Positions 1,160 through 32,690 of a DNA stretch of 32,690 nucleotides are shown here, one piece after another; the first letter of the stretch is position 1; each line of letters opens with the position of its first letter. Under the pieces are notes generated by a model, which worked only from the letters and a program-made list of their open reading frames with translations, made no database searches and was not told the origin of the DNA. Source of the stretch: Halocafeteria seosinensis (lineage: Eukaryota); the NCBI GenBank assembly GCA_001687465.1, contig LVLI01000238.1, forward strand, positions 1 to 32,690. The letters are read 5' to 3'. The position numbers and the translations under genes were made by a program.

Positions 1160-4100
1160 ATGGCGGATGAATTGCACCACACGGGAAATATGGATGACTT
1201 GGTGGCTGGGCTGTATCAGAAAGATGAGGAGGAGGAAGGCCTTGAGTTCGAAAAACTACAAACACCTGATGCCGCCGGCAACGATTTTCGGTTCGATGTA
1301 GGAGGCACGGAGCATTATGACACGGAGAAAAAAGTGCGCGGTTCCCGATTAGAAAGTGAGCGTCGAGCCAAGGAGGCAGCGAAGCCCCAGGAGCCAGAGA
1401 GACGGGAAACTTCAACGGCAAACACGTCAACTTCTAGAGATGGAGCTACTGGTACAGGGAAAACCAGTACTTCTGAGAATCAGGCCGCAACTTTATCTGC
1501 TGCGGCAACTGGTTGGACGACCACGAGGAGTAGCAACTCAATTTCCAGTACAGCCACGACGAATGTCGTGAGTACCGGCAAACAGTCTACTTCTACTTCG
1601 GTCGCAAGTTCGTCTACCGCGACGTCAAGAGTGACTCCCACAAGTACTACTGCGAGTACAAACAAGAGACAGGATGGTGCCGAGAGCTCGTTACGAGATT
1701 CAAATAAGGGCTCAAATAGAACCGCAAGAGGTGCCACCACCTCGCTCGCTACCTCGAACCAGTCGACAACCAAAACCGATAGCTCCAGCAAAGTTTCAGT
1801 TGCTTCCAACGGGACAAAACTAAGTTCCAGGTTATCCACGCAGACGAAAGGCGTTAGCATCGACGTTGCAGCGATGACTACTACTACAAGTATAACGGCT
1901 GTGGCGACCGAGAAAGGGCAAGTCAATAAGGGGCACGGAAGTGACGTGAGTTCGGCAAAGACAAGTCAATCTACGACAGTAACCGAGGGAGGAGATTCAG
2001 ACACTCATGGAAATTCGGCTACCCTCAGTCAACATGAACAGTACACTGGTGCTAACAAAGGTGGGCGGAGCGCCGACGAGAATACTGAACGCTCCATATC
2101 CGGCAGCAGTGTGAGTGGAGGTCATTCGGCGACCCAATCGACAGCGTCTGCACCGTCCACTGCAGTCTTACCGGAAAATACCCACTCAAATAGTGGTTCT
2201 TCTAAAACCGCAGATCAAACGCAAACCTCCGAATACAAGACTCCAACTACTACCAGTGAGGTCCAAGACACCCTACCGGAGGAAGGAGGTGGTGCCCAAA
2301 ATAGCACCAGTTTTGAGGGAGCGCCGCAAGCAGAAAGCCGGGATGGCAATTCTACTACATGTGCTTCTAAAGGCATGTACTCTACAACTCCAGAAATAAC
2401 GCACGTGGGCGTCACTAATGATCGCGGAAACACAGGAGATCCCGCGGTACAGTATGTTCGCAATTTCGTTGTAGATGCTGGAAGTGCGAAGGAGGGAAAC
2501 GACGAACTCGTGACGGATGACGCTTTGGCTGAAAACACTGGCATTGCGCCCATCGGATGGGAGGATACAAAGGAAGGAGGGAATGACGAGGATAACCAAG
2601 GTGACATTGAAAACCCGAGAGAAGAATATTTCCTGGGTACCGCCGAAGCCCCAAGAGATCAGGGTCGTCGGCGTTCTTCCATTGTCGACGATGAAAACGT
2701 GGCGCAAGTTTGGCGGGAGTTACAATACAAGCATTACAAAGACTGGTTTGAAGAGTTTGCTTCATCTGAAGATGAAGATGATGATTCTCTAGAGATGAAT
2801 AATTTCGTCCGGAAGGAACTCCCTGTAACTGATTTCGAATATCAGCTCTATGACCCCTCTCACTATTATTTAGACTACACCCCTCTAATTACACTCCAAC
2901 CCAGAAACATTGATACTGCTCTGAGAGTGAAACGTGACGCGCGCGACATTTCACTGATGATATTAGGTAAGTTGACAATCAGTCGGTATGTGGGGCTGTT
3001 GAGTATGGTAGTTGCGTTTTCACCTCTGTGCTTATGCAGTGACTGTAAGCCATGAGGATGGTGATCTCCTCCAGAAGACGTTGACTGGCATTGCCAACAA
3101 CTTGGCGTCGCTTCAAAAGAAAGTGGATATTCTCTGGGACGAAGTTGCTGTTTGCATAATGGTAGACGGGAGGCAGATGATGAATGAATCTTTGAGGCAT
3201 TATGCGGAAACACAACTAAAAGTGTTTGATTCTTCCATGATTGAACTTTACTCGAATGATCAGCCTACCCAAGTGCACATCTTTGAAAGAAGTGTCGAGA
3301 TTCCACGATATTTGCAGCAAGGCGATTATTTTGAGCCCCTGCAAGTTATGTTCGCCGTAAAGGAATACAACGGTGGCAGGCTTAACAGTCATCTATGGTT
3401 CTTCTCCGGGTTTTGCCAACAATTGCGACCGCAGTATACATTGTTGATGGATTGTGGGGTAGAACCTTTGCACTGTAGTATCGCATATCTCATGGAGCGT
3501 TTGGAAGAAGAGCTGACAGTCGGATCTGTCAGTGGCGAAATATCCACTAGAGACCTGTCCTTGTGGAATCCCGTTCATGCGGCCCAGCATTTCGAGCAGA
3601 AGTTGCACTCCGTTCTTACTTTCACCTCGGATTCGATCACCAACTACATGGTAAGCCCGACATCAGGATTCGTTGCCTACAAATATAAAGCAATTGAGGG
3701 TACAGTATTAGGGAAGTATCTCGTGGCTGAAGAGCGGACGCCTTCGGAACTGGGGCCTCAGAAGTCTAACATGTTCATGGCGGACCAACGCGTGCTTGCC
3801 CACGAATTAGCATTGCACCCTACACAACGATACAAAATAGTCTTCGAGTCCCGAGCGCGGGCATTGCAAACTATGCCCTCCAGTTTATTAGGTCTACTGC
3901 ATTTTCGGCGTCCGCATTATAACGGTGCGACGATGATCAACTGGGAATTTGTGCAACACTTTGCAAGTGCGACGTTCGGGAAGCGGGACACGGTAAATCC
4001 CTTCCTCCTCATACTAAGCGTTATTCAGTACGTCCACAAGACTATATCGTTTCTTTTGGAATGGTTCGCGATCGGCATAATGTTCCTAATCGCATTCATC

Positions 4101-6122
4101 GTTGCTTCTGTTAGTTTGGAAGAAACAAATGGGGGGAGTGCAAATTCGGCATTTGCCTTAACTGTCGGTTATACATTTCTAACCGTAGTACAAGTCATGA
4201 TCGGGCTAGGAGGCAATCCTGAAGACTTTCGAGTGGTCTACTGGCTAATATCCTTTGCCTTTGGCTTTATCATGCTGTTTCTTGCTGCCCTCGCTGCGTT
4301 CTTAGCTGCGATGCAAGACTTCAATTTTGTAGTGTTCATTATTGGTATAGGAAGTATCGGTCTTGTTCTACTGGCAACGTTTTTCCAGGGGAAGCTTTTG
4401 AATTTGCTTAAGGCGACGTGGCAATTTGTGTTCATGGTTCCGTTCTTTGTTAACATGGTTCCTATTTTCTCATTTTGCAACCTTCATGATACTTCGGACT
4501 CTCAGTCCATTGTACATCGAGCTCGGCGAGCAGCACGGTTGCAAAGAGGATCAATTTTCGGCCAGCCGGAATCAAGTGCTAACAAGCACGGTTCGAATAG
4601 TGGGTCGAAGAAGAACACAAATAACCGCAAGAATAGCGTGAAGGTAGCACCGGAGGGTAACGAAAATGCTGAAAAGACGTCCAATGGCTCTCACCAAAAT
4701 ATAACTGTTGCTCACCAGGAGCCAGAGCATACGGAGGGTGTGCACTATGACACGAATGGGAATGCAGTAACCGGAAACAATCCACTAGACTCAGAAGAAA
4801 ACGAACATGCGGATGCGTCCATCATGTCACTACGTCACTATCGACGAAGGCGATCCTCAGTTTTAGGCGAATCTCCCGAAGATGTAAGGGCACCACCGCC
4901 AGAGAAGTACGCCACCAGCGTAGGTAAAATCCTCAAGGCATGTAGAGAAGATGATAACTGGAGAGCTCAAAGCGTCATCGTCGAGGCGTTGAGCAATGAA
5001 GCAACAAGGGTGCGTTCACTAGAGCTGCAGACCCAAGAGGAGCACCAGAAAGTTAAGAATTTCTTTAGCGCATTTCGGACGAAAGCACTGTCATGGTGGC
5101 TTCTTACAAACTGGTTTCTCATCACTGGTATTCTCTGGTCCGGAGCCACTGCTGGATTCGCAATGGGGATTGCCATATTGCTGGGGTCAACTATAGTTGG
5201 GAGGGTCCTCGGTTCGTTCATGTATTCGATAGGTCAGGCATGGCGACACTCATTCAAAGGCATTCGGCGCCATTGCGGTCGTTGTTGCGTTGGATGTTGC
5301 CTGAAGTGCTGCCTCTGCTGTTCCTGCTGGAAGAAATGCTGTGTAGCATCATGTCGAAATTGCTACACCAAAGCGAAGTTAGTACATAACGCGAGGGAAG
5401 CAAACAAATTGCATGATGTCTCAGCAGCGCAATGTCTCAAAGATCTAGAGAACAGCACACTGGCTCCTAATCGACTTCGCAGGATCCAACGAAGGCACGA
5501 GCGTCAGCGGCAAGCTAAAAAACCAGCGACGCTAACGAATCATCAAACGCTGGGAACAGGATCGCCGGGACAAGGGCATTTCCCTTTCTCCCAGAATTAT
5601 GAAAGCAAGGAGGGACCAGCTTCGGAAAACCGGTCACAATCGCCTCAAGGAAGTGAAGTGTCCACCCGAGTTGAGAATGGGGGCGAAAGCGAAACAGGGT
5701 CTGTTTCCTCCCGGCGAGAGAAAAAGAAGAAAAAGCGTCGAAAGCATCGTCACAAAAGAAGCTCCACAACTGGTATTCCAACGAATAAGCGAGGGTCCAT
5801 AACAGGTCAAGGCGGGGGGGAGAAGCCCCCTCCAACTCCGTATGTGGGGCATTCGCCTAGCTCTACGCAGACCGGAGGAATCGCAACTGGCCGCAGCCGA
5901 GAAGGACCGCGTCGGCCCTCGTACTTGCTTCAAGGAGATCCAGTGAGCGGAATGTTTGGGTCTCCTCATTCTCTTGATTCTCCTGAAATGTCGAACACTG
6001 GACATTTCTCTTCGCCATTGCAAGGTCACCATCGTAGCCCACGAGATGGAAACAGCCGAAGGCGAGCTAGGGGAAGCTCAGCTACTCCTCACCCTTCTCA
6101 TGCCAGACGCGGCAGTGTATAG
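1160..6122 (+). CDS. CHS: Chitin synthase-like GT2 protein 1, probably catalytically inactive; exons 1160-2966 and 3040-6122; 1629 aa
   Basis: Removing intron 2967-3039 (GTAAGT...TGCAG, 73 nt, phase 1) joins ISLMIL-V-TVSHEDGDLLQKTL, which aligns with IIIAICITIYNEDADELRMTL of gene 2. Chitin synthase motifs present: VDGR, KEYNGGRLNSHLWFF, AAQHFE, FCNLHD, FRTKALSWW, plus several TM segments. EDR is replaced by DQR and QRRRW by FRRPH. Confidence 0.9.
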
Positions 6123-8900: not shown

Positions 8901-9696
8901 TCGAGTCAGTGCACTACACGTACGTTCTCTCGCTTTGAACTTGATTGTTGCATTCTTTGGTATTAAGAGTTGCTCTGCTCTCTCCAAAATATCGATTTAA
9001 ATAATAGCATCGATGGATACATATCATTGAACGCAAAATGTCCATCCATCCTTACGAGAGTCCCCGTATTCAGACGGGTGTTGTTGCTTTTCCTGCGCAC
9101 TCGTCTGAACAAGATTGCTCTCGAGAGGTACATCAGACGAACAGATAACACACTTCTATCAGCCTCTTCCAGTTATCTAGCTGGTTATCTCCAAGTTTTA
9201 GCGTAATCTGGTTCTCATTCTGCTGATTCTGGCCACTTATGTTTACCTGTTTGTAACGCAGAGTTGAAGAGCAACCACGACTTACAAGTCAAAGTGTAAT
9301 TCATAAGACTTTGATACGCTGCAGAATGAATTTACAGACAACTAAGGTTCCAAAAGGTCTCTCAGTGCTCTTCCGGGATCTTCTTCGGCCTAAACGTTTG
9401 GAGCAGAGTCTCCAGCGCCAGTCTCAGGCGAGGCAACAACTAAGTGAATGAAAAGATTGTCTTCGTTCGTCCATGGATGCTGAGTCCCCTAGAGATGCTG
9501 TTGCATACAATAGATACACGGGCGCCAACAAAATAGTTAGTTGTAGTGGAAGTACGTACGGTAGTGTATGAGGGCGCGAAGGATTACAAGCATTTGTACC
9601 ACCCAACAGCCTCAGAGCCATTCTGCTTTCCCAGAAGGCTGGAATTGTGACGGTAAACAAGCCAAAGTACAAAATACAATTGTAGAGTAGAGCAAG

Positions 9697-18600: not shown

Positions 18601-20652
18601 ACTTGGCTAGCGGTCGTTCCTCAATTAATTGCCAGAATAGCTATCCCTGACACGGAAATCCGTAGGCTTCTTCACTCTCTATTGATAAGGGTTGGCGTAA
18701 GGCACCCACAAGCGCTGGTTTATCCTCTAACAGTCGCGGCTAAGAGTACATCATCTGCCCGACAGCGCAGTGCAATGGAACTGCTATCGTCCCTGCGAGA
18801 GACCCATCCTCTCCTTATTGATCAAGCTCAACTGGTTTCTGAAGAGCTGATCCGAGTAGCGATTTTATGGCACGAGGAGTGGCATTCTGCGCTGGAGGAA
18901 GCGTCGAAGTTACATTTTACCGAGAAAAATACCGAGGGTATGCTAGAAACCCTTTTACCCTTGCATGAAAAGGTCGCTCGCGGTGGTAATACCGCCCACG
19001 AAATGACATTCGTCCAGTCGTATGGACGTGACCTAGCGAAAGCACACGATTGGTTAAAAAGGTATGAAAGACACAAGGATGAAAACGACATTAGTGCTGC
19101 ATGGAAAATCTATTACAACGTCTTCAAGCGGATCGATAATTCCTTATCTCAATTGAAGAATATTGAGCTTCAGTATGTATCTCAATCATTGCTGTCAGCA
19201 ACAAATCTAAAGCTGGCAATTCCCGGGACTTACTCTGCTGGATTCCCTGTTGTTCGTATCCGAGCGTTTTCTCCCTCAGTAGCTGTGATCCCTTCTAAGC
19301 AACGTCCGCGGAAGCTAACCTTAGCTGGTTCTGACGGAAGGATGTATACCTTCTTGCTGAAAGGCCATGAAGATCTCCGGCAAGATGAGCGTGCAATGCA
19401 ATTGTTTGGACTTGTTAACACTTTGCTGGCTAACGATGCGGAAACGTCAAAACGAGACTTGGCTATTCGCAGATATAGTGTCACTCCATTAAGCCACAAT
19501 GCTGGTATCGTCGGTTGGGTTCCAAATTGTGACACTCTTCATTCCTTGATAGAGGAGCATCGTAACAGTAGAATGGTACTCCTCAACGTTGAGCACCGAT
19601 TGATGCAAGCCATGGCACCGATGTACGATGAGCTAACTGCTCTTCAAAAAGTAGAAGTCTTTCGATATGCCCTCGAAAACACTTCCGGGAAAGATCTAGA
19701 TCGGGTTATGTGGCTCAAGAGTCTATCGTCAGAAATGTGGCTACGTCGCCGTACAAATTTCACGAGGTCGTTGTCGGTTATGTCGATTGTTGGCTACATT
19801 TTAGGCCTCGGAGATCGGCATCCTTCTAATTTGATGCTTGACCGCACTACTGGGAAGGTAACTCATATAGACTTTGGGGACTGCTTCGAAGTGGCCATGA
19901 GACGGGATAAATTTCCCGAAAAGATTCCGTTTCGTCTAACGCGGATGCTGGTTAATGCGATGGAAGTATCAGGCATAGAGGGGAATTTTCGGAGTACTGC
20001 GGAAGCAACAATGCGGGTGCTGCGCCAGCACAGAGACAGTGTGATGGCAATGCTCGAAGCATTTGTCCATGATCCCCTGATCAATTGGAGGCTATTAGGC
20101 ACCAACGAAGAGGAAAAGCCGTCACCATCCGCGGATCAAGATGAAGGCAGGACGGAGAAGGGCAATGAGATTTCCCAACAGGACATCTCACAGCGCGATC
20201 AAGATCAGGGAGCAGCAGGCCAGGGTACCACGGATAACGTTCCACCTAAGCGGCGTGGAGATCGTGAAAGAGAGTTGATTCAAGCTCTTGGGCCTGAAGG
20301 AATGGATGCACCTGCTGAGGCTCTAAACGACCGAGCAGTCCAGGTCTTGACGCGTATCAAGGCTAAGCTCACGGGGAGAGATTTCATCGATGATCCGATG
20401 TCTCCGAGGAAGAAGAGTTCCGTCCTCGGAAATCGGAGTAAGGAGTACTACGAACAACATGGCGGGGAAGAAGCTCCTCGCCCGTCACGAAAGAGTGCAA
20501 CCGAAGCTGGTAGAAGTGGATTTGGTCGGGCTTCAGGAGATCTCGAAGGGAATTCTTTGTCCGTTCAATCTCAAGTACAACGCTTAGTGGAACACGCTTC
20601 CTCGCACGAGAATCTATCGCAGCTATATGTAGGCTGGTGTCCCTTCTGGTGA
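9697..20652 (+). CDS. TOR: Target of rapamycin (TOR) PIKK Ser/Thr kinase, 3651 aa uninterrupted ORF
   Basis: N-terminal HEAT region, FAT start (LLNLAEFMEHDEKALP, CQAYAKALRYKE), FRB (RVAILWHEEWHSALEEAS), kinase motifs LLKGHEDLRQDER, GLGDRHPSN and HIDFGDCFE, FATC end YVGWCPFW*. Confidence 0.99.
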   Translation: MEALEELANASSPYSRAVAAHQLRYRVTTLSKEMPADSFLKFINYLIKRISELLNAPQDTSKMAGVYAIYELISAQTKEVDVKSQVVRFANYLRTIIGLSTADPAVLKMAAKAIGRLAAVGSTVAPSFLGFEINRALERLEYQESSEGQLFSSVSILREAAENAPTLFYKSIERFFKNVWTALSHSKPLVRESAAKTLGSCLKLTKRRKSQRHDEYCEDIYSNALTAFNNSGATWEAIHGALLALRELIMHADEFCSPKFTEICSCALKYRDVRDRLIRGTIIDILPRLAAFDPNGFVHGYVDLTLEYLLGTLRDLQERGPAFVAVGSVALAVKDYYPLSSLRPQLDKIVSLIKEALTPKRNRPFCTDALKCVAMLSDAVGPSLITYMHDLLEPMFAAGLTPELTHALKQLVSNIPPLLELIQERLLHEVSFILSGKPFPPPGQEFASFLPSNAPAAVSAASKAATAHRFRSRSHSQSAQKEGVDSSTDHSGSVDGSSSGGNKIGRLMGESVGSMSAAAAAVAAATNRDTMDMGLEYRGAQVNSAMIKSQQAFMGTGPDSREIRSEKSNIAWTRSMLAGTATGGGGAAITNAKFSMASPEAASQSGASGSSSLLSMQSKKSSQPLLTRVQRISLALRTLATFDFRGISLLPFVRHIVLLYADDPDLSIRRDAIVTTSMLLVSPSGCRLDKATVTSEKRRWQQKEFCSSDGQQTGSQTNGATDPGEIDTSASHPAGIRNLNRNLQSVLFPEAWYLFLDRDLEPYRGEKLRGEVDDSLRWNVNDTNKAGERAEHKQEGSMFVGGVLPVVLMDAGPTLELVNEILQRLIMAAVGDPHPYIRMLTLQCLGAGMRVLSITGKDNPQLIKPEGLYTLGTNWAIEYQPKHHVVYPFGSLEGGWFDALLAQPVALRTLCFSLHDEHHSVREMAVFLLGRLTHRNPSGVMPSLRRLLMEILQELELGAPARNSKHNDVSVESWKPEKMNSMGASNAMANQYLDSIPGYSLKDPPRDPVRDQEQAVRLLGFVIKAAHRLVSPYVRPILRTLLPKLAIDTVTRSNRNPEEEGHHDAELELDQDLQRDESDDSYRENENADMLPLVDSNLVSSALSTLGELSEIGAESMLPYFHKLTRLIIHTIGNRGEPQNQKVAVDTLTLLAGNAGRVVLPYIEHPTLLPLLLSLLRSEPGSSSTKTPQRPAVSNGGDNEVPWQLQKSVLRCVGVLGSLDPHRYQLSQIALLQLKRNASMFNNERNNQLVGLATHERQANAHAAIQAALAAARNNRAGVLGVGSTDPNVSNVMATIGFDLGDDDEDDEVGGWWWRWAWAQDDDYDDESATLRDPASVIDGVDAVDPIMAAVEGIADEDTALSIKSTLAEGAQRGRLHLKSDGATGSTMLSESGLSIMGAANQGRSAASILPSNFAERDVYFSTVALTSLLRILSDPSLTDHHPTVLQAVTWIFRSLGQRCVKFLPHVVPAFLNILRQRVRSLREIGGAAALLGLKNKSDSIVAGSSQNPANSSGNASLREAILQQLGVLVLLVKEHMRTYLPRLFGLLHELWPASLAAVLRLVEHIALALPNEFNNYVPGILVHILATLQNPTDPLASSAEALARSARASGTGGYDSGTSSALTRYSTGGGTMTNDEGVDQAEAHGAKTDDSISRATPEQLLEKGVALCRHVLSTVASLGSLLEPYLDQLLPAILCLADRNDLPPALRRHAVVTLTKLARGGVSLVDHSSQILHCLSRIIAGHLAWAMPGRVYSYDTESSNIYSKSSKHQPDAKASSNTKALKRSACDLCCWVACQMREEFLVFVPLLRRALVASDTQHQTLEGLMSMLLGGIPLPPDPVDFAYVVSELSWRDWVPFLDLEDLKDIRENLGTEMLSLGSEVAVTRKQRENTLKTNFDGVGDETIDEDDEEYDHTNIDTDADSSAQDKVNAALGVVTGATVVEEGDGGNVGGNEGMEKLEVNEEALARAWDTEGRVTREDWVEWMRRLTVELLRYSPSPALRACWNPAQVYYPLARELFNAAFVSCWSEMRSPSQKHLLDAIETALHASKTPNEILHALLNLAEFMEHDEKALPMDIRTLGRLAEKCQAYAKALRYKEREYEQYLTGDGVSSNVSNSAGHRPQQTGNDYEGFGSTHSNVKTHSAIVESLIGINNQLEQPEAAIGILKYTQAQAAVGDRDTMGKLGIGVHTAPDVNQNTDAESRYFSWGLLEIKETWYEKLGRWEDALEAYNRKFAENYSTIQEGENGNLVRVSMPSHLTGFNTDKSASEAYVPLTLQLGRMRCLKALGEWVELQQSATELWPQLSVKESIDAVAPLAAQSSWALGDWKSMEMFSRYTQSKTMDGTLFRAVYSIYAHKFESAKSYIERARKLVSGNLSAVEAETYTRSYKSLVTVQQLTEMEEIIHYLRLRSAGEVEAAERYMQHVRPLWERRLKGCQQNADVWQNMLSVRALVRQTEEDLDSWIKFANLSRREHRVSMSRRILLGIGMDGNGGFQQGSASTVVETGGLACFPPPQNSQFPQSSSKRYVTGNAIPMLSSSVLKQSQQNSTDDKSSNNPNSPAVVGVGVTGAGYFDQPHSSRESAQSSASEVSASQSQHLRTPGWAVSTRQSPDGPMPHAYPVQVGTQGYDGASLDNQTYEGALVNNCVGMLGDIRPHPKVDFAFAKHLWASGSEFAAISHLTRLVTELDKAGGTKIEMGNYSHSLGERTTTADNEDMLPQIRRIDRSPYKYGFGSILDEETSRQLRMQCHLKLGEWKWYLMETHGTLDVHGSHNNSNAGTGPHEDTTMPKEGYAESEELSSRASFYRAQSSEDFMRILQSILGDYKASTDAVPRNYRAWHAWALANFQAAQRLHVSLSDTSAGEDKKNSGGKKSKPKRTSLGFGFNVLASRENQSSEESENQRRMVAAHVVPAVRGFFKSINLGRGRLRAHVLQDLLRLLTLWFTFGGTGQPEVRKELENGLASGFIGVDTWLAVVPQLIARIAIPDTEIRRLLHSLLIRVGVRHPQALVYPLTVAAKSTSSARQRSAMELLSSLRETHPLLIDQAQLVSEELIRVAILWHEEWHSALEEASKLHFTEKNTEGMLETLLPLHEKVARGGNTAHEMTFVQSYGRDLAKAHDWLKRYERHKDENDISAAWKIYYNVFKRIDNSLSQLKNIELQYVSQSLLSATNLKLAIPGTYSAGFPVVRIRAFSPSVAVIPSKQRPRKLTLAGSDGRMYTFLLKGHEDLRQDERAMQLFGLVNTLLANDAETSKRDLAIRRYSVTPLSHNAGIVGWVPNCDTLHSLIEEHRNSRMVLLNVEHRLMQAMAPMYDELTALQKVEVFRYALENTSGKDLDRVMWLKSLSSEMWLRRRTNFTRSLSVMSIVGYILGLGDRHPSNLMLDRTTGKVTHIDFGDCFEVAMRRDKFPEKIPFRLTRMLVNAMEVSGIEGNFRSTAEATMRVLRQHRDSVMAMLEAFVHDPLINWRLLGTNEEEKPSPSADQDEGRTEKGNEISQQDISQRDQDQGAAGQGTTDNVPPKRRGDRERELIQALGPEGMDAPAEALNDRAVQVLTRIKAKLTGRDFIDDPMSPRKKSSVLGNRSKEYYEQHGGEEAPRPSRKSATEAGRSGFGRASGDLEGNSLSVQSQVQRLVEHASSHENLSQLYVGWCPFW

Positions 20653-20784: not shown

Positions 20785-22492
20785 TTACGGAGTAGTCAAT
20801 TCTGGATTCGGAATGATATCTCGGCTGATGATTAGTCGCTGAATCTGGGAGGTGCCTTCATAGATTTGATAGATCTTGGCATCGCGCATTAGCTTTTCCA
20901 CGGGGTATTCGGTGTTAAAGCCGTTCCCACCAAAGATCTGCACGGCGTCCGTTACGACTTTGTTGCAGTGGTCAGCAGCATACGCTTTCGCCATGGATGC
21001 AAGATGCGTGTTCCGTTCTCCCGAATCTACCATCCATGCCGCTTTATAGGTCATAAGCCGCGCAGCTTCGATTCCCATTGCCATGTCAGCAATCATAAAT
21101 GCTACCGCCTGATGCATAGCGATCGGCTTCCCCATTGTTTTCCTTTCTTTGCTGTACGCGACAGCTTCATCCATTGCGCGCCGGGCCAAACCAACGGCTC
21201 CAGCGGCTACAGGAGGTCGAGTATGATCAAAGGCTTGCATAGCAATCCTGAACCCTTGACCTTCACTCCCGAGCACATTTTCTTGAGGGACTTCTACGTC
21301 TTCGAATGTAACAGCACGAGTGTCACTGCATCGTTGCCCCATGTTCACTTCTTTCTTACCAACATGAATACCGGGGGAATCAGCATCCACAACGAATCCG
21401 GTGAATGCCTTGCCGGTAGGGGTTTCAGGATCGTCGCTGGTCCTTGCCAAGACAAAATACCAATTAGCCACACCACCGTTAGTAATCCACATTTTGTTCC
21501 CGTTCAAAATGTACTTGTCCCCTTTCTTGACAGCCTTCGTTTTGGCCCCAGCGACGTCACTTCCCGCTTGCGGTTCGGTTACACAGTAGGCTGCTTGAAG
21601 TGGTTCCTCCGTCATACGTCCTAGATACTTCTTCTTCTGCTCTTCATTGCCAGCAACAATAACTGGTGCCTCCGCGAGACCATTTCCTTCGATGGCAGTC
21701 ATCATGCCGGTACAACCATATGCGAGCTCTTCGGCAATGACGACACCCTCGATAGCTCCGAGCCCAGCTCCACCGTAATCGGCTGGGATATGAGTGTTTA
21801 CAAGACCAAGCTCCCAGGCTTTATTGAATATTTCTCGAGGATACTCCATAGATGTATCGTATTCCTTTTCCTTTGGCATCATTTCTTCCTTTGCGAACTT
21901 CCTTGACAGTTCTTGGATAGCACGTTGGTCGTCCTGCGAAAAGGGGGATCACATACTTGTTACCATACCATTCCATACCATACCCGAAGCTAACTTTCTC
22001 ATTCCTGTTTCACCGCCCTTCTAAGGTATAAGGTTGTTGTCCTCCCCTGGTATGCTACACCCGCGCACCCACGCGGCACACAACACTGTCTGTCGTAAAA
22101 GACACGACAAACATTTCGGCGAGTTATTAAGTTTCCGCCCGAAATTCCGGAGGTGCCTTTTTTCCCCCTCATCATGGGGTGTATACAGTACAACCATGCG
22201 TGCATCTAGCAGAAACCCCAAGAGTGCATAGGATCTAACACTAACTCAGCTGTCCTTTCCTGAGTTTAGTGGGAGTAAACAGGGGTTCTGTGCGCCGCTG
22301 ACGTAGCCACCATCCTCCCTTCACACTCTGTTTCTCATTCTTGTCTATTGACCCCACGCTTGGTTATTACTTGGTACATACCGTGAGATTGAAATTCATG
22401 CCTCCGGTGGTTTCAGTGGACATCATCATTCTTGTCATGGTACGCGTGGTTTGGCGGCCCACAAGAGGACGGAGGACGGATTGCATCATCAT
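20785..22492 (-). CDS. ACADM: Mitochondrial medium-chain acyl-CoA dehydrogenase; exons 22492-22382 and 21933-20785; 419 aa
   Basis: Exon 1 [37 protein letters not shown] (Arg-rich presequence) ends at a GTATGT donor. A 448-nt phase-0 intron ends at TTCGCAG, then [17 protein letters not shown]. Motifs [32 protein letters not shown] and [13 protein letters not shown] (MCAD-type catalytic Glu). Confidence 0.96.
21961..21984. repeat. Short (TACCA)n pentanucleotide repeat within the ACADM intron
   Basis: taccataccattccataccatacc. Confidence 0.7.
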
Positions 22493-23382: not shown

Positions 23383-23662
23383 TATGGGGACTGTAGCTGT
23401 AAGCGGGTGGGAATTTTGAGCCAGCGAGATTAGAATCTCCCTTGAGTTGCGAGGTGGTTGAAGAAGGACCGCCGAAAGGGGCTCCCTGAGGGAGCAAAAA
23501 AGGTCGCCTGCGCGACCTCTTCCGTCGAAGTCTGGAAGTTTCCTCCCCGTTCGTTCACCTTGGGAAAGCATGCATTGATTGGATGAATCCTAGGGGTATG
23601 GTGTGGCTGTTAAGTAAAGCACTTAGTAGAACGGAAAACGCACTAGACGGTTGCACTCCATA
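23383..23662 (+). ncRNA. Candidate structured RNA element, family unidentified
   Basis: Long-range helix 23383-23400 with 23647-23662 (16 bp, five G:U on the + strand) encloses several hairpins, including GCTCCC-TGA-GGGAGC and AGGTCGC-CTGC-GCGACCT. Confidence 0.35.
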
Positions 23663-24018
23663 AAAGAAAGAGTCGGGAGTACTGTACCGTACCGGTAGCA
23701 AGGTGTCTCGGGAAGTTGGGTTGACACCACACAACCAGTTTTGTAGGACATTGTGCCTGTGCAAAGTGCTGATTTAGTTCAATTTACTATCGTATTTGAG
23801 TTGTTTGCGTGCTTGCTTGCCTGCCTGCTTTCAGGAACAAAACGACGACCAGGAAGAGGAAGAGGAAGCTGCTGCTGCTGCGGCTTGTGAGCTGGTGTAC
23901 GCATCCTGTGTTTAACATTAACGCGTCTCGCCCTGGCGGGCTTTATTTGGCCAAAACAATAGGAGTAAGGGTGTCGAAGCCCCCCACGACTGGGCACGTA
24001 AGAAAGGGCTAAAAGGAA

Positions 24019-27000
24019 ATGGAAGGGACACCTAGCTCGCCGAGGACGGCCGGTAACGGACCTGGGACTGGAAATAATCAACACGAGGACATTCAGCAAC
24101 GTCAGTCTCCGGACGATGGGGCTCACAGTGACCAGGACGGCGTCCAGAAAAGAATCGAGGACAAGACGGGAAGTACGGGAGACACTGAAACCACCGGCAG
24201 ATGGACAGACGGGAACCTGGAACAGGATTCGCCTCAGAGTGAACGTGCTGATGCTGGGCGTATACGCAAGGTGGAAATACCAAAGAGCCCGAGTACACAA
24301 CGTTCTGTTGAAGAAAGAAGCTCTATAGAGCAGGGGGATGCAACGGAACAATTGTACGAAGAACCAAACAAAGACTACGATGAGGAGGATAGGCAGGCCC
24401 AGGACGACCGACGATTTTACCCGGGCCTAGCTCCTAATATATCAGACATATCCGAGTCGGAGGATAGGGACGACAGTAGTGAGGAGGCTGCTCACCAGCT
24501 TCCAATCAACATGGTAAGAGGGCACAGCTTTCTGCGCAAGGAACTGTCTTCCGATGAATTTAGTCACTTCGAAGATCGAGAGGAGATGATGACTGTCGAT
24601 TATACTCCGGCAATCAACATTCGCCCAGTTGATCTTCATACCCCTCTACGGACCCTACGCTTAGGTAGAGATATCATAATTGCAATCTGTATCACCATAT
24701 ACAATGAAGACGCAGATGAACTAAGGATGACTCTTCGTGGAATAGGGGAAAACCTTTCGTACTTGGCGTCTGTTGGGGTTGACTGGACCCAAGTCCAGAT
24801 TGTTATTGTAGCTGACGGACGGAACAAACTGAATGAGTCCGTCCAAGAGTTTTTTGCAAAAGAATTGCTACTTTTCAATGAAGATCTATTGCTTAAGTCG
24901 CATAAAGGGAACCCCGTTACTTGCCACCTTTATGAAAAGACGGTTGAGATTGCGCGACACTCCTCACAGCGGCAATACTATTTTCCGATGCAAATATTAC
25001 TGGCTATGAAGGAGAAAAATGGCGGAAAATTAAACTCGCATCTTTGGTTTTTCAGTGGTTTCTGTCGACAGTTGCAGCCGAAATACGTATTTCTCGTAGA
25101 TTGTGGTACTGCCCCCAAGCGAGATGCAATAATGCACTTATACCGTAGGATGGAAGAAAATCCACAACTCGGAGGAGCAACAGGAGAAATTCAAGTCCGC
25201 ACTCCCCGGTTTTACCACATGCTTGAAGCTTCGCAGCACTTTGAGTACAAAGCAGCCCATATGCTGGATAAGCCCATGGAAAGTGTGTTTGGTTACCTGT
25301 CGGTACTTCCGGGCGCATTCTGTGCATACCGATGGGAGGCTATTCGGGGGGAACCTCTGTCCCAGTACTTCAAGTTGGAGGAAACCGGTGCGCAGCAGCT
25401 CGGTCCGTTTGCGGCAAACATGTACCTTGCAGGTGAGATAAATTATCGCTTGTATCACATTATATTGTTTGTCTCGTAGCGGTAATTGCTTACTACTGCA
25501 GAAGATAGGATTTTGTGCTACGAAGTGATCGCAAAGAAAAGGCGCAATTATACACTTTATTTTGATCACAACTCTGTGGCTGTGACTGACGTACCGGGGT
25601 CACTTCTTGAGCTAACAAAACAGCGGCGGAGGTGGCTCAATGGATCGTTTTTTGCGATACTGTACTATATAACAAAATTCTGGGGTTTGTTGAGTCGTAC
25701 GAGTCACTCGGTACCGCGGCGATTCTTCTTGATTATTCAGTTCTTCTATTATGTGAGCTTGATCTTCTTTAACTGGTTCGGAGTCTCGCTGTTGTATCTC
25801 AGTTTTTCCCTCATCATCGATCTGGCGATGGATCAACTTGAGTCGGAGACGTTGGCTTTGGCCCTGTTTTTTTCATTTCACATTGTTTACCTCTCGTTAA
25901 CATTCTTACAAGTACTTTTTGGACTCGGTGCCAAAGCGCAGGACGTTACTCGTGTTTATTTTGTCTCGTCTATTGTGTACGGTCTTCTGATCGTCTTGGC
26001 CATTGGATTGTCCGTGTGGCAACTAACTGCGGAGAACAGTTTGGCGCTGCTATTGATCTCTGTTTCAGCGTTCGGGACATTTTTCCTTTCTTCATGTATC
26101 TATGGGCAACTGTATACGATGATGTCCACGTTTGTTCAATATGTGTTTATGCTGCCTACGTTTCTAAACATGTTCATCGTTTATTCGTTGTGTAATATGC
26201 ATGATGTCTCATGGGGCACGAAGGAAGGAAATCTTCGAACACAGCTTGCCGAGGCGCGAGACAAAGTTGACCAAAAGAGTGGTGACGTTAAGGCCGGAGA
26301 AGACGGAGATACGCGTATGAAGAATCTGAGAGCGGCGGCGCGTCTGTTGCAGGGTAGTCAGTCGGATGGTGATCAGGCAGACGTGCCTATGGAAGACAAA
26401 GACCCCCATGCCGTTATGCTCAAGATAGCTGAACAGGCTGAGGAGGAGAGACATAAGGAGAAAGTTGAAAAGTAAGTAGTCTTTGCAAAACGCACAATTC
26501 TTCATCTCATCTCCATCATCTGGATCTGCAATTTCTTGGTTGTGATTCTTGGGCTCAGGAACAAGGAAAAGCTGCAGAGAGAAAATGATGAGCTCCGTCG
26601 CCGCTTCCAAGCGTTTAGGACGCGATTATTAGCGTTTTGGCTGTTCTGCAATGGGTAAGTTGACCTAAGAAGTCTTGCTATATTTTACCATCCTTTTACT
26701 GGTGGTTGTTTTTGCAGCACCGTAGCGTCGATAGTACTTGGATTCGGCCTTATCACTTACTTCGGTTGGTTTATGGCGGGCGCAGTCGGATTTCAGATGA
26801 TTTACAGACTAATTGGAGCATTTTGGTATCAGGGGGAGCGTTTGGTAAAGTATTGTTGGAGGAAAGTCTTTTCGTGGTGGTGCTGTTTCCGCTGTTGCTG
26901 GGAACGACACAAAATGCAACGGTTTCAGATTCGGGCGAAGGAACGACGACTCAAGCAACAGCGACAGATACGACGCTACATTGGTGGGTATGACGATGAG

Positions 27001-30000
27001 CCCGTCGATGACGAAACGGACGATATGTCAGCAGTTGACAGCGAAGACGAGGAGGAAAAACGGAAATGGGGTGCGAAAGATTGGAGCCAGTACGCAGGGT
27101 ATGGATTGGTGCACGAGAAAGCCCAGATTGATGCTGCTACAGGTAGACAGCGTAGAGCATCACACCTCATTGGCTGGGATGAGGAGATGGACGAGGGTGA
27201 ACGGCAGAAAAAGCTGGGCAGACGCAGCAGCATTTTCGATTCCCAAGCGTCTGTGGAGGTTGATGCTGGTGGGGCAAAAAGACGAGTATCCTTGTATCTC
27301 GACACGCCCAGGGAAAGCAAGATGATTCCAGCGGACACTGTCTCTGCTGCGGCAGCTGGAAAAGTCGGGACACAGCACGATGCCGTTTCACACAACGAAG
27401 AGGCTGCAGACCGGGGGGAGCATACACCCACTTCTTATGAATCTGGTAACTCCTCTAGCGATCGTCTGTCTGTTCGGTCCGGTTCGGACGAGTCTTGCGA
27501 CTCTGCGGAATTGAACGCTTGCATTGAAGATGGCGAAAACGTTGCCGCAAATGCGAAGTCGAAGCTACAAGGGGCTGATGACATTGAGTCGTCGAATACT
27601 GTCCCCAATTATATACTTCCTCCTGGGGCCTCATCCTTCCCGCCCGTGGACCATGTCAAGGCAGTTTGGAATACTACGACGGCGAGCAGTGCTGTACAAG
27701 CCCAGAACGCCAATGAATATGCAACGACAGCAACTAGAACCGATAACACGCGTGATGACGAACTAAGCACATATACTGGCCAGGGGGTTATTGAGTACAC
27801 TACAGATGCCAACCATGCACCGGATCCTTCGCATGAGAACTCGGTATCCTCGGGTTCCGCAAGGCATGAAGAGCAAGGCGTTGTAGATACGTCCTTGGGG
27901 TATGGAAGGAGATCGACCCCTTCACGCAGTAGCGACGGGGACGCTTCGGATGAAAGTGTTGGGAATGACGATGCTGGGTCCTTTCATTTTCCGAAACAGA
28001 AGGGTCATAGCTTCTTGCGCAAGAAATTCGACTCATCCGATTTGAGTGTTACCGGAGAGGAAGAAGAAATGTATACTTTAGATTACNCCCCCGCCGTAAA
28101 CAGAAGACCTGTAGACTTGCTAACCCCCCTTCGTTTGGTTAGGCTTGGAAAGAACATCGAAATATTCGTGTGTCTTACATATGGTCATGGAAGCTTGCTG
28201 GAGCTCAAACGGTAAGTTGCTATGTATGTATGGAAGATACTTGTCGGAATCCGCTCACCTATATTGTATTCGGAACGATGCAGGACACTGACTAGTGTCG
28301 CAGAAAATTTGTATGGCCTTCAGCGATTCGGCATCTCCTGGGACCGCGTTGCGCTGTGTCTTGTAATAGATGGTCGTGAGTCCATCCCCAATGAAGTACG
28401 TGATTATCTTGTTAACGAGGTCAAGATTTGGGAACCAGACATGCTTTTGAAGAGCCACAAGGGCGCGGATGTGATGTGTCACATATTTGAACGAACGGTT
28501 GCCCTTCCGAGGCATTCCTCGCAGGGGGAATACTTCCTACCGCTGCAGATGGTGTTGGCGGTCAAAGAGAAGCCTGGCGGAACACTGCACTCTCATTTGT
28601 GGTACTTTTCAGCGTTCACGCGGCACGTTCAGCCAAACTATTGCCTTGTCCTTGACAGTGGCGTGAAACCACAGAAGAATGCTGTTCTGAACTTACACCA
28701 GGAACTGGAGGTGAATCCCCAAGCAGGGATAGTGTTTGGAGAGTTGAGACCCTTGGATCCGCGATACTACAACATAGCTGAATCCAGTCAGATTTTTGAG
28801 TATACCTTGGCTCATAGCTTACAAAAGCCGGCGGAATCTTTTGCTGGGTATGCGACACCATTTACATCCGGCTTTACGATGTATCGTTGGAAGGCTATTC
28901 GAGGAGAACCACTGAATCAATATTTCCGTGTAGAAGAGGAGGGTCTAGCTGCGTTGGGTCCATTCTTATCGAATTTGTACTTAACAGTGGATCGGATCAT
29001 TACGTTTGAAACATTGACTAAGCGGCAAAGGAAATGGAGAACTTTGTACTGCTCGGCGGCAGTCGCCGAGCATAAGACGCCTGATACACTTATTTCATTG
29101 ATCACGAACAGGCGCAGGTTTGTAAGCGGAAGTCTTTTTGGGTATATGTACTTCTTGAGCCAGTCGATGAAAATTTGGCAAAGAAGTGCTCACTCGGTTG
29201 TGCGGAAGCTAATGCTCAGCGCCCATACTTTGATGAATGTTGTGTATATCATTTTCTACTGGTTTGCCCCTTCCCTGGTCTATCTGCTGATGTTCTACAT
29301 ATTTACCACGTCTGTCAGCGGTCTGGGCTTCGGCACTACGTAAGTGCTGCGACAGCGATTGTTTTTGTTTTATGTTAGCGATCAGAAAGTGGCATACTTC
29401 GTGCTGCAGGATTATTACATTCGGCTTCCATCTGGTGTACCTGGCGACAATGCTACTACAAGTGATTTTCTCGCTTTCGTCCCGTTCCGAGGATGTTGAA
29501 CGGATATTTTTTGTATCTTCTATAATCTACGGAGCGTTTATGTACACTGCATTTGCGCTATTCTTCCTTTCTGCCGTGAATGGGGCCTTTGACAACATAT
29601 TTCTTCTTGGACTTGCAGTTTGCGCGGCTAGTGCTCTAGCTGCTGCCCTAATTCACGGTAATCTGTTTCGCCTGCTGGCTTCGTTTTTGCAGTATCTCTT
29701 CATATTTCCCACCTCTGTGAATTTATTCATGGTGTATTCGTTCGCGAATTTGCATGATATAAGCTATCGTCTAAGAGAGGGCAATCTGTTGGCATTAATG
29801 TCTCAGGCTCGAAAAGGTGTTCGTCATGATGCTTATGATGTGAAAATGAATCAGAGACCGCGGAGGGCTTCTGAACTTCTGCGGGAGCTGGACGTTGCAA
29901 TGCGAGAACAGATAGGTCATAGACTTTCCAACGACGATAACGTAGCGGAGAATGCGGAAGAACACGAAACTGGAAGCTCTATGCAGCCCCCTCCCCAGCA

Positions 30001-31217
30001 AGTAGCGAGAGCGTCAGTGGGTGGAGACCCAAAAGAGATTTTGGAAAGAGCATACCAGGCAGCTCAAGAGGAGCAGATGCAGCGAGAAATCGAAGAGTAA
30101 GCATAGCGCCTCTCTTGGTTCGCTATCTGCTCAGCAATTGTTGAGTTTTGTTGCAGGCGCAAAGAAAAGATCCAACATGAAAATGCTCAAATCTCTTCCG
30201 AGTTTGCATCTTTCCGAACCCGCCTACTCGGTGTCTGGTTGTTTACAAATATGTAAGGATTGCAATGGAGCTACTGGACGCTCACCATCCTGCCGATTAT
30301 TGTACCGCTCATTTACATGTTACGCAGGATGCTTGGTGCTGCGTTTAGTGGAACGGGCCATCTTAAAGAAGGTGCTTGGGGAGTCGCTGGTATAACAACT
30401 TTGATTTTTATTCTACGTTTGCTGAGTACGATCTTCTTCCAGTTGGAGCGTGCGTTTAAACATATATGGACAATGTACTTCTCGTGGTGCGGCTGTCGGT
30501 GTTGGTGGGAAAAGGGTTCAAAACGTTCGTCGCAAAAGAAGCAGGGAGAGCCCCGATATGCCGAGGTTGTTCCTGGAATGGAAGTAGAAGGCGAGCAAGC
30601 GGAGACTGGAAGCACGGACTCTGTTGACCGTTACGACGAGGCTCAGTGGGGTGCGTATAACTGGTCAAATTACTTTGGTTATGGTGTCGCTGAAGGTCGT
30701 GGCGAAAATGACATAATAGGATGGGACGAAGAAATGGATGAAGAAACCCGGTTGAAGCTCGTCGGAAGAAGGCACAGTGTATTTGACGAGGCACCGCCAG
30801 TTCCTAAGACTTTCAGCCGAAAGATAGATGTGCCCAAAGTAGATGCACAAGTCGACACCGAAGAAGATCACGTAGTTTATGTTAAACCATCCCATGAATC
30901 GACAGGGAAGTCACAGGGACAACCTGAGGCCGCGGATAGCCAAAGTGGGGTCGACGAAACTGAAACGGAATCTCTTGGACCCTTGTTGAGAGAAGGCGAG
31001 GAGGTGGCTAGACGTGTCTCTGTAAGTCTGCGCCAACATGAAGAGTAACTGTGGATTTCGGCAAAAGACCGCAGAAAATCATAACGAGGTGTTTCCGTTT
31101 GAGCAACTTCAGATAGAAGAAGAGCAGGACATCACTCCTGCAAGTCTTATGCATCTATATACGCCCACCACTGTACACAAGTCCTCACAGGAGGATTTGG
31201 ATTTGTTAACCCGATGA
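24019..31217 (+). CDS. CHS: Tandem double-module chitin synthase (intact module A plus degenerate module B); exons 24019-25432, 25502-26471, 26559-26654, 26718-28211, 28284-29339, 29410-30096, 30157-30252, 30328-31021, 31113-31217; 2203 aa (2177 aa ending at 31048 if the last intron is not spliced)
   Basis: Eight GT-AG introns (69, 87, 63, 72, 70, 60, 75, 91 nt) each restore the frame; the first seven also restore homology. Module A: TIYNE, DGR, KEKNGGKLNSHLW, VDCG, VLPGAF, YLAEDR, TDVP, QRRRW, HDVSWGTK, FRTRLL. Module B repeats the architecture with altered motifs. No stop codon lies between the modules. Confidence 0.88.
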
Positions 31218-31546
31218 CCGACCCGTGACCAGGACCCCCACATTCGGTCCCGGTCGCCACATCTGTCCCTACTTGAACTTCCAACCACAAGGAAGGTGGA
31301 TCATCTCGCTTCCCTTCCAATTCAATGGAATGAGCGACGTCTATTATTATCTGGCGTTGATGCTTCGAGGGTTGTAAAAGAGCATGTTATTGTGTTCCCT
31401 TTGGTAGCTTCTGTTCTTTCTGTGTGTTGTTTCATACAAATACATGTACAGTAGGTTGTACTAACCTGTATGTGTAAGTAAGTGTATATACAAACAGCTG
31501 TACAAGGTTGCTAGATAAAGTTTATTACCACCGTTTGTAGGAAACG

Positions 31547-32690
31547 ATGCCGAAGAAGGGAGCTCCTAACACTACCAGTACGCCCGCTACAGGACGCCCC
31601 AATACCAGACAAACAGCTAATGAGAACCGTCAAACCCAGAAAAGAGGCCATTCACGGGAATCGGGGACGAAAAATACTCAAAAGAGGTCCAAGAAGACAC
31701 CTTACAACAAGCAAGCGCCTACAGGCAAAGAAGGCACAGGTCGTAGCTTTGGACAATCGGGACAACAAAATAAGGCTAGTGTGTCCAGACAACAGGCGGC
31801 GAGCTCTTCCTCCGGGGAGAGGAAAGCGAGTAGCTCCTCGGCTTCCAGCACGAAAAAGGAAGGCCCAACGCTGGTGAGAGTGTACCGGAAGCCAATTGCA
31901 CCGGTAAACCAAAACTACTGATACCATCTTCGGCTACCCGAGAGGAGGAAAATAGGTTAAAGGAAGAATATAAAGCGAAACTGGCACAGTATGGTGGGAA
32001 CCGTTCTAGCGGGACTGATACAACTCCAAGGAAAAGCCACTCACAGCGACAAACAGCCGATGGTGGAGGGGACACATCCGAGCATATCGAGAGTGGAGCC
32101 GAAGGTAATACGGAAAGTGAGTAAACTGAGTACAAGGAATTTTGGATGTCTCAAAACGTTCCGTTTGACTCTCTGGCCACATTTCCGTAGACAGAGAAAC
32201 CTGTGGTTACCGAGACAACTCAAGAAACTGTGCCATGTAAGTTATCTTGGTGAGAACTGTATACTGATTCTTGTTCGTCTTGAATTCCCATGGGCACTTG
32301 TTTGCGCGACATTGCAGCCCTGAAAAGCATTCTGCGGAACAGGTTCGATAAATTCCTCCAGCAGAAGCAATACAAAGCGTCATGGCCCGCCGCAAAACAG
32401 GTAAAAGGCATCAAAGAGGCGTTCGAGGCCATGACGGGTGATTTGGATGAGGCCTCCTTCGAGGACAAAGAAAGCCTTCAAGCGTTTCTCCAGGGCTACG
32501 TCAAGAAACACCAAGCCACCACAATCGCCGGTGAATTATTCCGGTGCTTGAAAAATGCCAGAGAAGCGCGTAAGTCTATGGTTTGTATGCGACAGTACAA
32601 ATGTAGCTCAATTCCCAAATACCATATTGTTGTCTTCTCTTGTATTACTTTGTTGCTTGTTTGCAGGAGGCGGCGGTGGAAGCTCAAGTT
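31547..32690 (+). CDS. Hypothetical multi-exon protein with a basic low-complexity N-terminus, 3'-truncated; exon structure partly unresolved
   Basis: ATG 31547 opens MPKKGAPNTT... Clear introns at 32237-32317 and 32570-32666 (GTAAGT...TGCAG) flank an open exon (LKSILRNRFDKFLQQKQYKASWPAAKQVKG...). The junctions near 31850-31990 and 32105-32194 are ambiguous. Confidence 0.55.

What the first reader, a model, noticed from the sequence alone, without database searches (positions are those of the whole stretch)
24019..31217. Two complete chitin synthase modules fused in one polypeptide: an intact enzyme followed by a pseudo-enzyme
Seen: exon 26718-28211 reads without a stop from the last TM segment of module A, through a ~370-aa mostly acidic/Ser-rich linker, into the start of module B (GHSFLRK..DYxPAVN.RPVDL.TPLR at 28003, matching 24520). 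Module A keeps EDR and QRRRW (25621-25635). Module B has VDR (28987-28995), NRRRF (29107-29121), PFTSG for VLPGA, SYR for SWG, TYGHG for TIYNE and GGTL for GGKL, yet its frame and TM layout are intact. Established: fungal and oomycete chitin synthases form homodimers with both termini cytosolic, so head-to-tail fusion is topologically feasible. Inference: this is a single-chain asymmetric pseudo-dimer in which B is structural or regulatory, or changes chain number or product. I do not know of this architecture being described, but cannot check.
Basis: partly seen in the sequence, partly recalled or inferred. Interest (0 to 1): 0.88.

Follow-up and report, generated by a model that had tools for sequence, protein, structure and literature searches.

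The report
Chitin synthase fused to dead twin
A spliced protist gene encodes two whole chitin-synthase units in one 2,177-residue chain: the first has every catalytic motif, while the second has lost most of them yet stays conserved, so it likely acts as a built-in structural partner, a layout we did not find described for this enzyme family.

Summary
Confirmed. The gene (24019-31048, seven introns) encodes 2,177 aa with two chitin synthase modules. Spliced contigs from three runs skip exactly these introns and cross the linker, and an unspliced contig crosses it too. A transcriptome protein matches the model. Module A has all nine motifs. Module B lacks equivalents of PsChs1 Glu495, Pro454, Trp539, Trp742 and the uridine-binding YNE, but keeps three aspartates. 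The same species has a second A+B paralogue (P0004, 43% identical) whose B is also degenerate, and a stand-alone degenerate synthase lies at 1160-6122. B-type relatives lose different aspartates, form one clade (100/100) and share unusually conserved TM1-TM3 helices. B's SNPs are 8 silent to 1 replacement. Best reading: B is a non-catalytic protomer that pairs with its own A as a single-chain pseudo-dimer. A fold prediction gave only weak support (0.35 vs control 0.00). Full fusions were seen in this one species only, and no activity is measured. Ten literature searches found no two-module chitin synthase. One correction: the stop is at 31048, not 31217.

The parts
24019..31048 (+). Gene for the 2,177-aa double chitin synthase; exons 24019-25432, 25502-26471, 26559-26654, 26718-28211, 28284-29339, 29410-30096, 30157-30252, 30328-31048 (stop TAA 31046-31048)
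   Evidence: Splice model; all seven joints seen in X2, X3 and X4; transcriptome protein P0267 has the same length and differs at 7 residues plus the window's one ambiguous codon
24520..26847 (+). Module A (aa 168-870): canonical chitin synthase, GT-A domain plus membrane domain; TIYNE 24694, DGR 24814, VLPGA 25303, EDR across intron 1, QRRRW 25621, SWG 26209
   Evidence: E 9e-61 to PsChs1 (7WJM) for exon 1 alone
26893..27255 (+). Cytosolic tail of A (aa 886-1006), homologous to the tail of B (GYG...IGWDEEMDE...GRR.S.FD)
   Evidence: Local alignment score 172, 0 of 2,000 shuffles
27256..28002 (+). Low-complexity Ser/Ala/Asp/Thr-rich linker, stop-free, inside exon 4; about 23% identical to the paralogue's linker
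27484..27573 (+). Conserved island in the linker (aa 1083-1112), possibly the former C-terminal end of A
   Evidence: Matches P0004's linker (6 of 2,000 shuffles); weak match to the protein's own C-terminus (59 of 2,000; the three other C-terminus/linker pairings were not significant, 179-219 of 2,000)
28003..30469 (+). Module B (aa 1256-1985): degenerate chitin synthase; TYGHG 28177, DGR 28369 (kept), GGTL 28576, DSG 28654 (kept), PFTSG 28858, VDR 28987, NRRRF 29107, SYR 29762
   Evidence: E 3e-62 to PsChs1 for exon 5; the B-type relative P0128 models at pLDDT 84 with TM-score 0.76 to solved chitin synthases
29281..29590 (+). B's TM1-TM3 stretch (aa 1658-1737, including GLGFGT), better conserved between the two B modules than the matching stretch is between the two A modules
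   Evidence: B/B identities 14, 13, 14, 11 of 20 against A/A 9, 10, 12, 10
30500..30802 (+). Cytosolic tail of B (aa 1996-2096), homologous to A's tail
26472..26717 (+). Introns 2 and 3 (phase 2), at the same aligned positions and phase as introns 6 and 7 of B (30097-30156, 30253-30327): trace of duplication of an intron-bearing gene
1160..6122 (+). Separate gene C: 1,629-aa stand-alone degenerate chitin synthase (TVSHE, SPTSG, DQR, FRRPH, SDS; catalytic Asp replaced by Gln); one intron 2967-3039
   Evidence: intron skipped in X2, X3 and X4; transcriptome protein P0127

Best explanation
The gene is a head-to-tail duplication of a whole chitin synthase gene, read as one 2,177-aa protein, in which module A keeps all catalytic motifs and module B is likely a non-catalytic protomer predicted to pair with its own A as a single-chain pseudo-dimer. 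Shown: one spliced ORF, two complete modules, B's motif losses, purifying selection on B, and a second A+B paralogue in the same species. Inferred: A polymerises UDP-GlcNAc and exports the chain through its own channel. B's altered gate loop, acceptor Trp, SWG loop and uridine pocket leave it with little or no processive activity. Both termini of each six-helix module would face the cytosol, so the roughly 385-aa tail-plus-linker can join them. B would fill the partner position of the dimer, stabilising or trafficking A and giving one chain per dimer instead of two.
For: ORF and splicing. B degeneracy. In PsChs1, Glu495Ala loses about 95% of activity, Pro454Ala and Trp742Ala abolish it, and Trp539Ala greatly impairs it (PMC9556331 passages); window B differs at all four positions. 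The aspartates that window B keeps are not conserved among B-types: the DxG Asp is Gly in P0128 and Asn in P0133, and the catalytic Asp is Glu in P0004-B. B is maintained: 8 synonymous to 1 replacement SNP (P = 6e-5 against neutral; A 6 to 0). B-types form one clade (4 of 4 rows, 100/100) on a 0.77 stem, separate from the A-type clade (4 of 4, 100/98), so the A/B split predates the paralogue split. Between the paralogues, GT-domain identity is 45% for B against 64% for A, but the membrane region is 53% against 59%. B's TM1-TM3 stretch is more conserved than A's, and TM2 and the TM2-TM3 loop are dimer contacts in PsChs1. Predicted A(500-875):B(1590-1990) complex: weak support, 0.35 against best control 0.00, runs agree in at least 62% of contacts, partner pLDDT at least 64. 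The mark was reached by 51 of 78 solved complexes and 2 of 108 mismatched pairs, but at 0.60 or under by only 5 of those 78 and by all 4 mismatches that passed. Homodimers of this family are solved, so the pass may reflect likeness only.
Against: Window B still has the equivalents of Asp291, Asp382, Asp496, Glu432, Tyr433, Arg536 and Arg538, so residual or altered activity is not excluded. The complex score is weak and cannot tell cis A:B from trans A:A' or B:B' pairing. PsChs1's dimer depends on N-terminal SP/MIT domains that the paper says occur only in oomycetes, and interface residues vary between families. Full-length fusions were seen in one species only; P0128 and P0133 are isolated exon-sized calls whose link to an A module is unseen. 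The transcript evidence is assembled contigs from one study (3 samples), not long reads, and P0267 may derive from the same data. The SNP count is small (22 coding SNPs from one contig set). Chitin production in this organism was not shown.
Confidence: 0.57

Rival explanations
1. B is non-catalytic but pairs in trans: A modules dimerise with A and B with B across different chains, so the long linker strings active dimers into arrays that set fibril spacing or chain number.
For: The linker of about 385 aa is far longer than needed for a cis pair. A-types and B-types each keep their own membrane-surface signature, as homotypic interfaces would. CHS oligomerisation is proposed to matter for fibril formation (PMC9556331 passage).
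Against: A tethered cis partner has the concentration advantage (general principle). The A:B pair got weak predicted support. A:A and B:B were not folded, so there is no direct comparison.
Confidence: 0.18
2. B is a slow or respecified glycosyltransferase, for example making short primers or adding a different sugar, and cooperates with A.
For: Window B retains DGR, DxG and the catalytic-base Asp, and 60 of 85 positions invariant in nine canonical rows. B-types share new invariant residues in the gate loop (PF) and next to QHFEY (LQK).
Against: Those aspartates are lost in different B-types (Asp to Gly, Asn or Glu), and the YNE and QxxRW positions differ between B-types. That pattern looks like relaxed constraint, not a new conserved active site.
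Confidence: 0.11
3. B is a ligand-sensing regulatory module (binding UDP, UDP-GlcNAc or nascent chain) that tunes A allosterically, like the N-half of hexokinase I.
For: DGR is kept in all 3 B-types that cover it, and the GT fold is intact. The hexokinase I precedent is recalled.
Against: The uridine pocket (TMYNE) is differently degraded in the two B modules that cover it (TYGHG, TFHANQ), and GT-domain conservation is relaxed relative to A. PsChs1 protomers work independently, Hill coefficient 1.
Confidence: 0.09
4. The chain is a polyprotein cut in the linker, or the two modules are really separate genes joined by read-through or assembly.
For: Contigs are not single molecules. In X3 the contig covering the 3' part is deeper than the 5' one. 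The linker is disordered and open to proteolysis.
Against: A has no in-frame stop and the linker is stop-free beyond chance. Four contigs cross it. The paralogue has the same open linker with a conserved island. X3's contig break lies at a SNP inside A, not in the linker, and gene C shows the same rise in depth towards the 3' end. Cleavage itself is untested.
Confidence: 0.05

Closest known systems
Oomycete and fungal Division 1-type chitin synthases (PsChs1, PDB 7WJM/7WJN; S. cerevisiae Chs1 7XS6/8K3Q; C. albicans Chs2 7STL)
   Same: PF01644 + PF03142 core, all nine motifs in module A, GT-A domain followed by the membrane domain
   Different: Those are single-module proteins that form homodimers of two active protomers. 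Here two modules share one chain and the second is degenerate. Pfam found no MIT or Chitin_synth_1N domain.
P0004/P0122 (EukProt GECG01007496.1 / GECG01007492.1, 2,326 aa)
   Same: Same A+linker+B layout; A 62% identical, B 48% identical; B degenerate
   Different: A paralogue from the same transcriptome series as the window's own genes (P0127, P0267), not a second species. Its B has also lost the catalytic Asp (AER). No description of it was found.
Internally duplicated enzymes with one degenerate half: hexokinase I, membrane adenylyl cyclases, ABC transporters with a degenerate site, JAK JH1/JH2 (recalled, not tested here)
   Same: A tandem duplicate kept as a structural or regulatory partner in the same chain
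   Different: Unrelated folds; the analogy is to the logic only
Glycosyltransferase/pseudo-enzyme partnerships such as C1GalT1-Cosmc, CHSY-CHPF and IRX10 with IRX9/14 (recalled); bi-domain exostosins (PMC9178029, search listing only)
   Same: An active transferase works with a catalytically impaired homologue
   Different: These are separate polypeptides, or two different GT families; none is a duplicated processive GT2 synthase with two membrane channels

Membership tests
Chitin synthase (GT2, Division 1 type) - module A | Pfam Chitin_synth_1 and Chitin_synth_2 above curated cut-offs | tested here: met
Chitin synthase (GT2, Division 1 type) - module A | TxYNE, DGR, GxKL, DxG, QxFEY, VLPGA, EDR, QRRRW, SWG motifs | tested here: met
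   9 of 9
Chitin synthase (GT2, Division 1 type) - module A | Six membrane helices after the GT domain | tested here: inconclusive
   Hydropathy found 5 segments above threshold in each module; the sixth is inferred from alignment and the PsChs1 description
Chitin synthase (GT2, Division 1 type) - module A | Makes chitin from UDP-GlcNAc | not testable with these tools
   Needs an assay
Active chitin synthase - module B | EDR and Q(R/K)RRW intact | tested here: not met
   VDR and NRRRF; relatives have AER/SQRRF, VDR/HRRRQ and VDR/TRRRF
Active chitin synthase - module B | VLPGA gate Pro, SWG Trp, YNE uridine pocket | tested here: not met
   PFTSG, SYR, TYGHG
Active chitin synthase - module B | The three aspartates of the D,D,D,QxxRW signature | tested here: met
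   Present in window B (DGR, DSG, VDR); not conserved across the other B-types
Active chitin synthase - module B | Chitin synthase fold | tested here: met
   Tested on the B-type relative P0128 (57% identical): pLDDT 84, TM-score 0.76 to 8Z0O and 7WJN; window B itself by sequence, E 3e-62
Pseudoenzyme (retained, catalytically impaired homologue) | Expressed, in frame and under purifying selection | tested here: met
Pseudoenzyme (retained, catalytically impaired homologue) | Measured loss of activity | not testable with these tools
   Inferred from PsChs1 mutants only
Chitin synthase dimer (PsChs1-like) | A and B membrane domains pack as the two protomers | tested here: inconclusive
   Weak support, 0.35 against control 0.00; no contacts given

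The most novel reading that the evidence does not exclude
This lineage has built a chitin synthase machine with dedicated dead protomers. Two covalent enzyme-plus-pseudoenzyme chains and a free pseudo-synthase (gene C) assemble so that inactive subunits set how many chains are extruded and how they are spaced. That would make it a natural one-chain-per-dimer synthase, and a direct test of whether two-chain dimer output determines chitin fibril form.
Probability: 0.3. Interest if true: 0.88.

Novelty: new variant of a known kind. Interest (0 to 1): 0.76.

Why it matters
Solved chitin synthases are symmetric homodimers whose protomers each extrude a chain, and oligomer geometry is thought to shape the fibril (PMC9556331). 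A natural, expressed, selectively maintained single chain with one live and one degenerate module would separate dimer architecture from catalysis. It would let one ask whether dimerisation serves folding and trafficking or fibril assembly, and what product results from one chain per dimer. It is also a ready template for an asymmetric, linked chitin synthase in structural work. It points to chitin synthase pseudoenzymes, for which our searches found no paper, in a little-studied flagellate lineage where the use of chitin is unclear.

Tried and rejected
No whole genome is held for the window, so synteny and a full gene-family count could not be made. The run search listed no holder on record as RNA; the spliced joints in X2-X4 are what identify them as transcript-derived. 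An extra intron at 31022 leading to a stop at 31217 was rejected: three spliced contigs run unbroken through it and P0267 is 2,177 aa. P0004 as an orthologue from a second species was my first reading and was rejected: the same transcriptome series holds the window's own gene C (P0127, 8 differences in 1,629 aa) and A-B protein (P0267). Cross-species fusions were sought and not found. One search covered 616-2,000 aa only. One search (1,012-3,220 aa; 120 of 228 hits listed) gave only P0004. One search (best 150 of 3,466 hits) gave only P0004 with two full modules. BLAST of the 266 proteins then held gave only P0004/P0122, plus three weak split hits. The metagenome scan gave 3 loci, each with one canonical module. 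These blanks are weak: gene calls split intron-bearing genes, and a double enzyme of the animal or Division 2 type would rank below the list. An A+B sister relation in the tree is unresolved (74/54), though both lie in a 10-row starred clade (98/96). The idea that the linker island is A's old C-terminus has only one marginal test in four. Contig depths were not used as expression levels. The scan's own notes held nothing relevant. The CaChs2 paper could not be opened, and no supplements were consulted.
Full report
Gene model. The region carries one plus-strand gene from ATG 24019 to TAA 31046-31048 with seven GT-AG introns of 60-87 nt. It translates to 2,177 aa with no internal stop. Contigs of runs X2, X3 and X4 skip exactly these seven introns, while X1 skips none. 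X2 record 9 (7,306 nt) covers 23582-31386, X4 record 16 covers 24236-31334, X3 record 14 runs from inside module A to 31386, and unspliced X1 record 6 covers 24970-30681. The linker is therefore neither a misjoin nor interrupted. These are assembled contigs from 4 runs, at most 3 samples and 1 study, so they are not proof of single molecules. A transcriptome protein, P0267 (EukProt GECG01013925.1, 'complete', 2,177 aa), equals the model except for 7 residues and the window's one ambiguous codon.

Two modules. Pfam finds Chitin_synth_1 and Chitin_synth_2 twice each. Each module matches the solved oomycete enzyme PsChs1 at about E 1e-61. The two cores are 42% identical. A's and B's cytosolic tails are homologous (0 of 2,000 shuffles), and introns 2 and 3 of A sit at the same positions and phase as introns 6 and 7 of B. 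A whole intron-bearing gene was thus duplicated head to tail (inference). The 247 least conserved linker codons are stop-free, which 0 of 20,000 shuffles reproduce.

Motifs. A has all nine motifs. B has TYGHG, PGGTL, PFTSG, VDR, NRRRF and SYR in place of TIYNE, NGGKL, VLPGA, EDR, QRRRW and SWG, but keeps DGR, DxG, QxFEY and the Asp of EDR. In PsChs1, Glu495Ala removes about 95% of activity, Pro454Ala and Trp742Ala abolish it, Trp539Ala greatly impairs it, and Asp291, Asp382 and Asp496 are essential (PMC9556331, passages read). B differs at the first four positions and retains the three aspartates. It is probably inactive or nearly so, but this is inferred.

Relatives. P0004 (GECG01007496.1, 2,326 aa) has the same A-linker-B layout, 43% identical overall, A to A 62% and B to B 48%. 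I first took it for an orthologue. The same transcriptome series also holds the window's gene C and its A-B protein, so P0004 is a paralogue in the same species. The accession prefix suggests the halophilic bicosoecid stramenopile Halocafeteria seosinensis; this name is recalled and no call verified it. Two exon-sized B-type proteins come from ENA assemblies: P0133 (90% identical to window B) and P0128 (57%). Two A-type first exons, P0140 and P0159, end at the position of intron 1. Across B-types the remaining aspartates are lost in different ways: DxG becomes GPG in P0128 and NSG in P0133, and EDR becomes AER in P0004. In a 39-row tree the four B-types form one clade (100/100, stem 0.77) and the four A-types another (100/98). 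A+B sisterhood is unresolved (74/54) within a starred 10-row clade. The A/B divergence thus predates the paralogue split. The path between the two B modules is about 1.0 against 0.65 for the two A modules.

Selection. All 25 differences listed between X1's contigs and the window from 24484 to 30681 were classed: A 6 silent and 0 replacement, B 8 and 1 (P = 6e-5 against neutral), linker 3 and 2, C-tail 1 and 1, introns 3. Between the paralogues, B's GT domain is less conserved than A's (45% against 64%) while its membrane region is close (53% against 59%). In the TM1-TM3 stretch B exceeds A (14, 13, 14, 11 against 9, 10, 12, 10 of 20). PsChs1 uses TM2 and the TM2-TM3 loop to contact the partner's TM5. 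The B-type relative P0128 models confidently (pLDDT 84) and matches chitin synthase structures at TM-score 0.76 (the Atlas agrees).

How widespread. An HMM search of 1.84 billion cluster representatives gave 3,466 hits; among the best 150 only P0004 has two full modules. Word-based searches and a metagenome scan (3 loci, each with one canonical module) added none. Full fusions are therefore known here from one species only. The searches cannot see fusions split by introns in gene calls, nor doubles of the animal type. Single-module degenerate relatives do occur elsewhere (P0141, P0261, P0239), so motif loss alone is not unique; the fusion is the unusual part.

Gene C. At 1160-6122 lies a 1,629-aa single-module gene, with its intron skipped in X2-X4. 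Its catalytic Asp is Gln, QRRRW is FRRPH and SWG is SDS. It sits on a long branch (1.61) outside the A/B clade, with uncertain placement, so it probably degenerated independently.

Mechanism. Most likely A synthesises and exports chitin while B, tethered by a cytosolic tail and linker of about 385 aa, takes the partner's place in the dimer (confidence 0.57). A prediction for the two membrane domains gave weak support: 0.35 against best control 0.00, at least 62% contact agreement, partner pLDDT at least 64, alignments not used. The tool notes that passes at 0.60 or under are more often wrong than right unless likely beforehand, and solved homodimers exist, so the pass may show likeness only. 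Rivals are trans A:A'/B:B' arrays (0.18), residual or altered catalysis (0.11), a ligand-sensing B (0.09), and cleavage or separate products (0.05).

Literature. Ten full-text searches (listings only, and only the top 20-30 rows of the larger ones) returned no paper reporting a two-module or pseudoenzyme chitin synthase. Passages read in two surveys (PMC5122149; PMC3942024) and an amphioxus study (PMC4937987) describe myosin, cytochrome b5, SAM, discoidin and MIT fusions and one motif duplication, but no duplicated whole module. PMC7852580 (passages) reports chitin synthase expression in a related kind of marine flagellate and only speculates on its role. PMC5294986 (passages) was not relevant. 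Subscription reviews of eukaryote and oomycete chitin synthases (recalled) are outside the library, and no supplements were read, so a mention in such places cannot be excluded.

Verdict. The architecture is real, expressed, duplicated and maintained, and is a new variant of a known enzyme family. The role of B is inferred, not measured. Interest 0.76.

Noticed in passing
window 1160-6122 (+): Stand-alone, spliced, degenerate chitin synthase gene C (1,629 aa) lacking the catalytic Asp, about 18 kb upstream of the fusion gene; a candidate partner subunit.
   Followed up: partly
P0004/P0122 (not in window): Second A+B fusion paralogue of the same species; its B has lost the catalytic Asp as well.
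   Followed up: yes
window 9691-20652 (+): Open frame of about 3,650 aa encoding TOR kinase (FAT, FRB, kinase, FATC) with long low-complexity insertions and no apparent intron.
   Followed up: no
window 20785-21948 (-): Acyl-CoA dehydrogenase gene in one open frame.
   Followed up: no
window 7788-8900 (+): 370-aa membrane protein with no Pfam match at E 0.01; its YHSYHTTT...THTTY stretch recalls the TMEM151 family (from memory, untested).
   Followed up: no
window 31100-32000: Several divergent contigs pile up here in all four runs, at roughly 5-18 times the flanking depth: a multicopy repeat or gene family starting just behind the fusion gene.
   Followed up: no
window 23582-24018: The spliced contig X2 record 9 extends at least 437 nt upstream of the ATG, with two short out-of-frame upstream ORFs at its very start (23583, 23598).
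   Followed up: no
P0141, P0261, P0239: Single-module chitin synthase-like proteins from other assemblies with degraded motifs (for example EDE/ARKRY, PSM/RRAQM); further possible pseudo-synthases.
   Followed up: partly
P0014, P0017, P0018, P0022, P0024, P0019: Chitin synthases fused to FAD-dependent oxidoreductase domains, ubiquitin-like repeats or a long cysteine-rich N-terminal region in unnamed assemblies.
   Followed up: no
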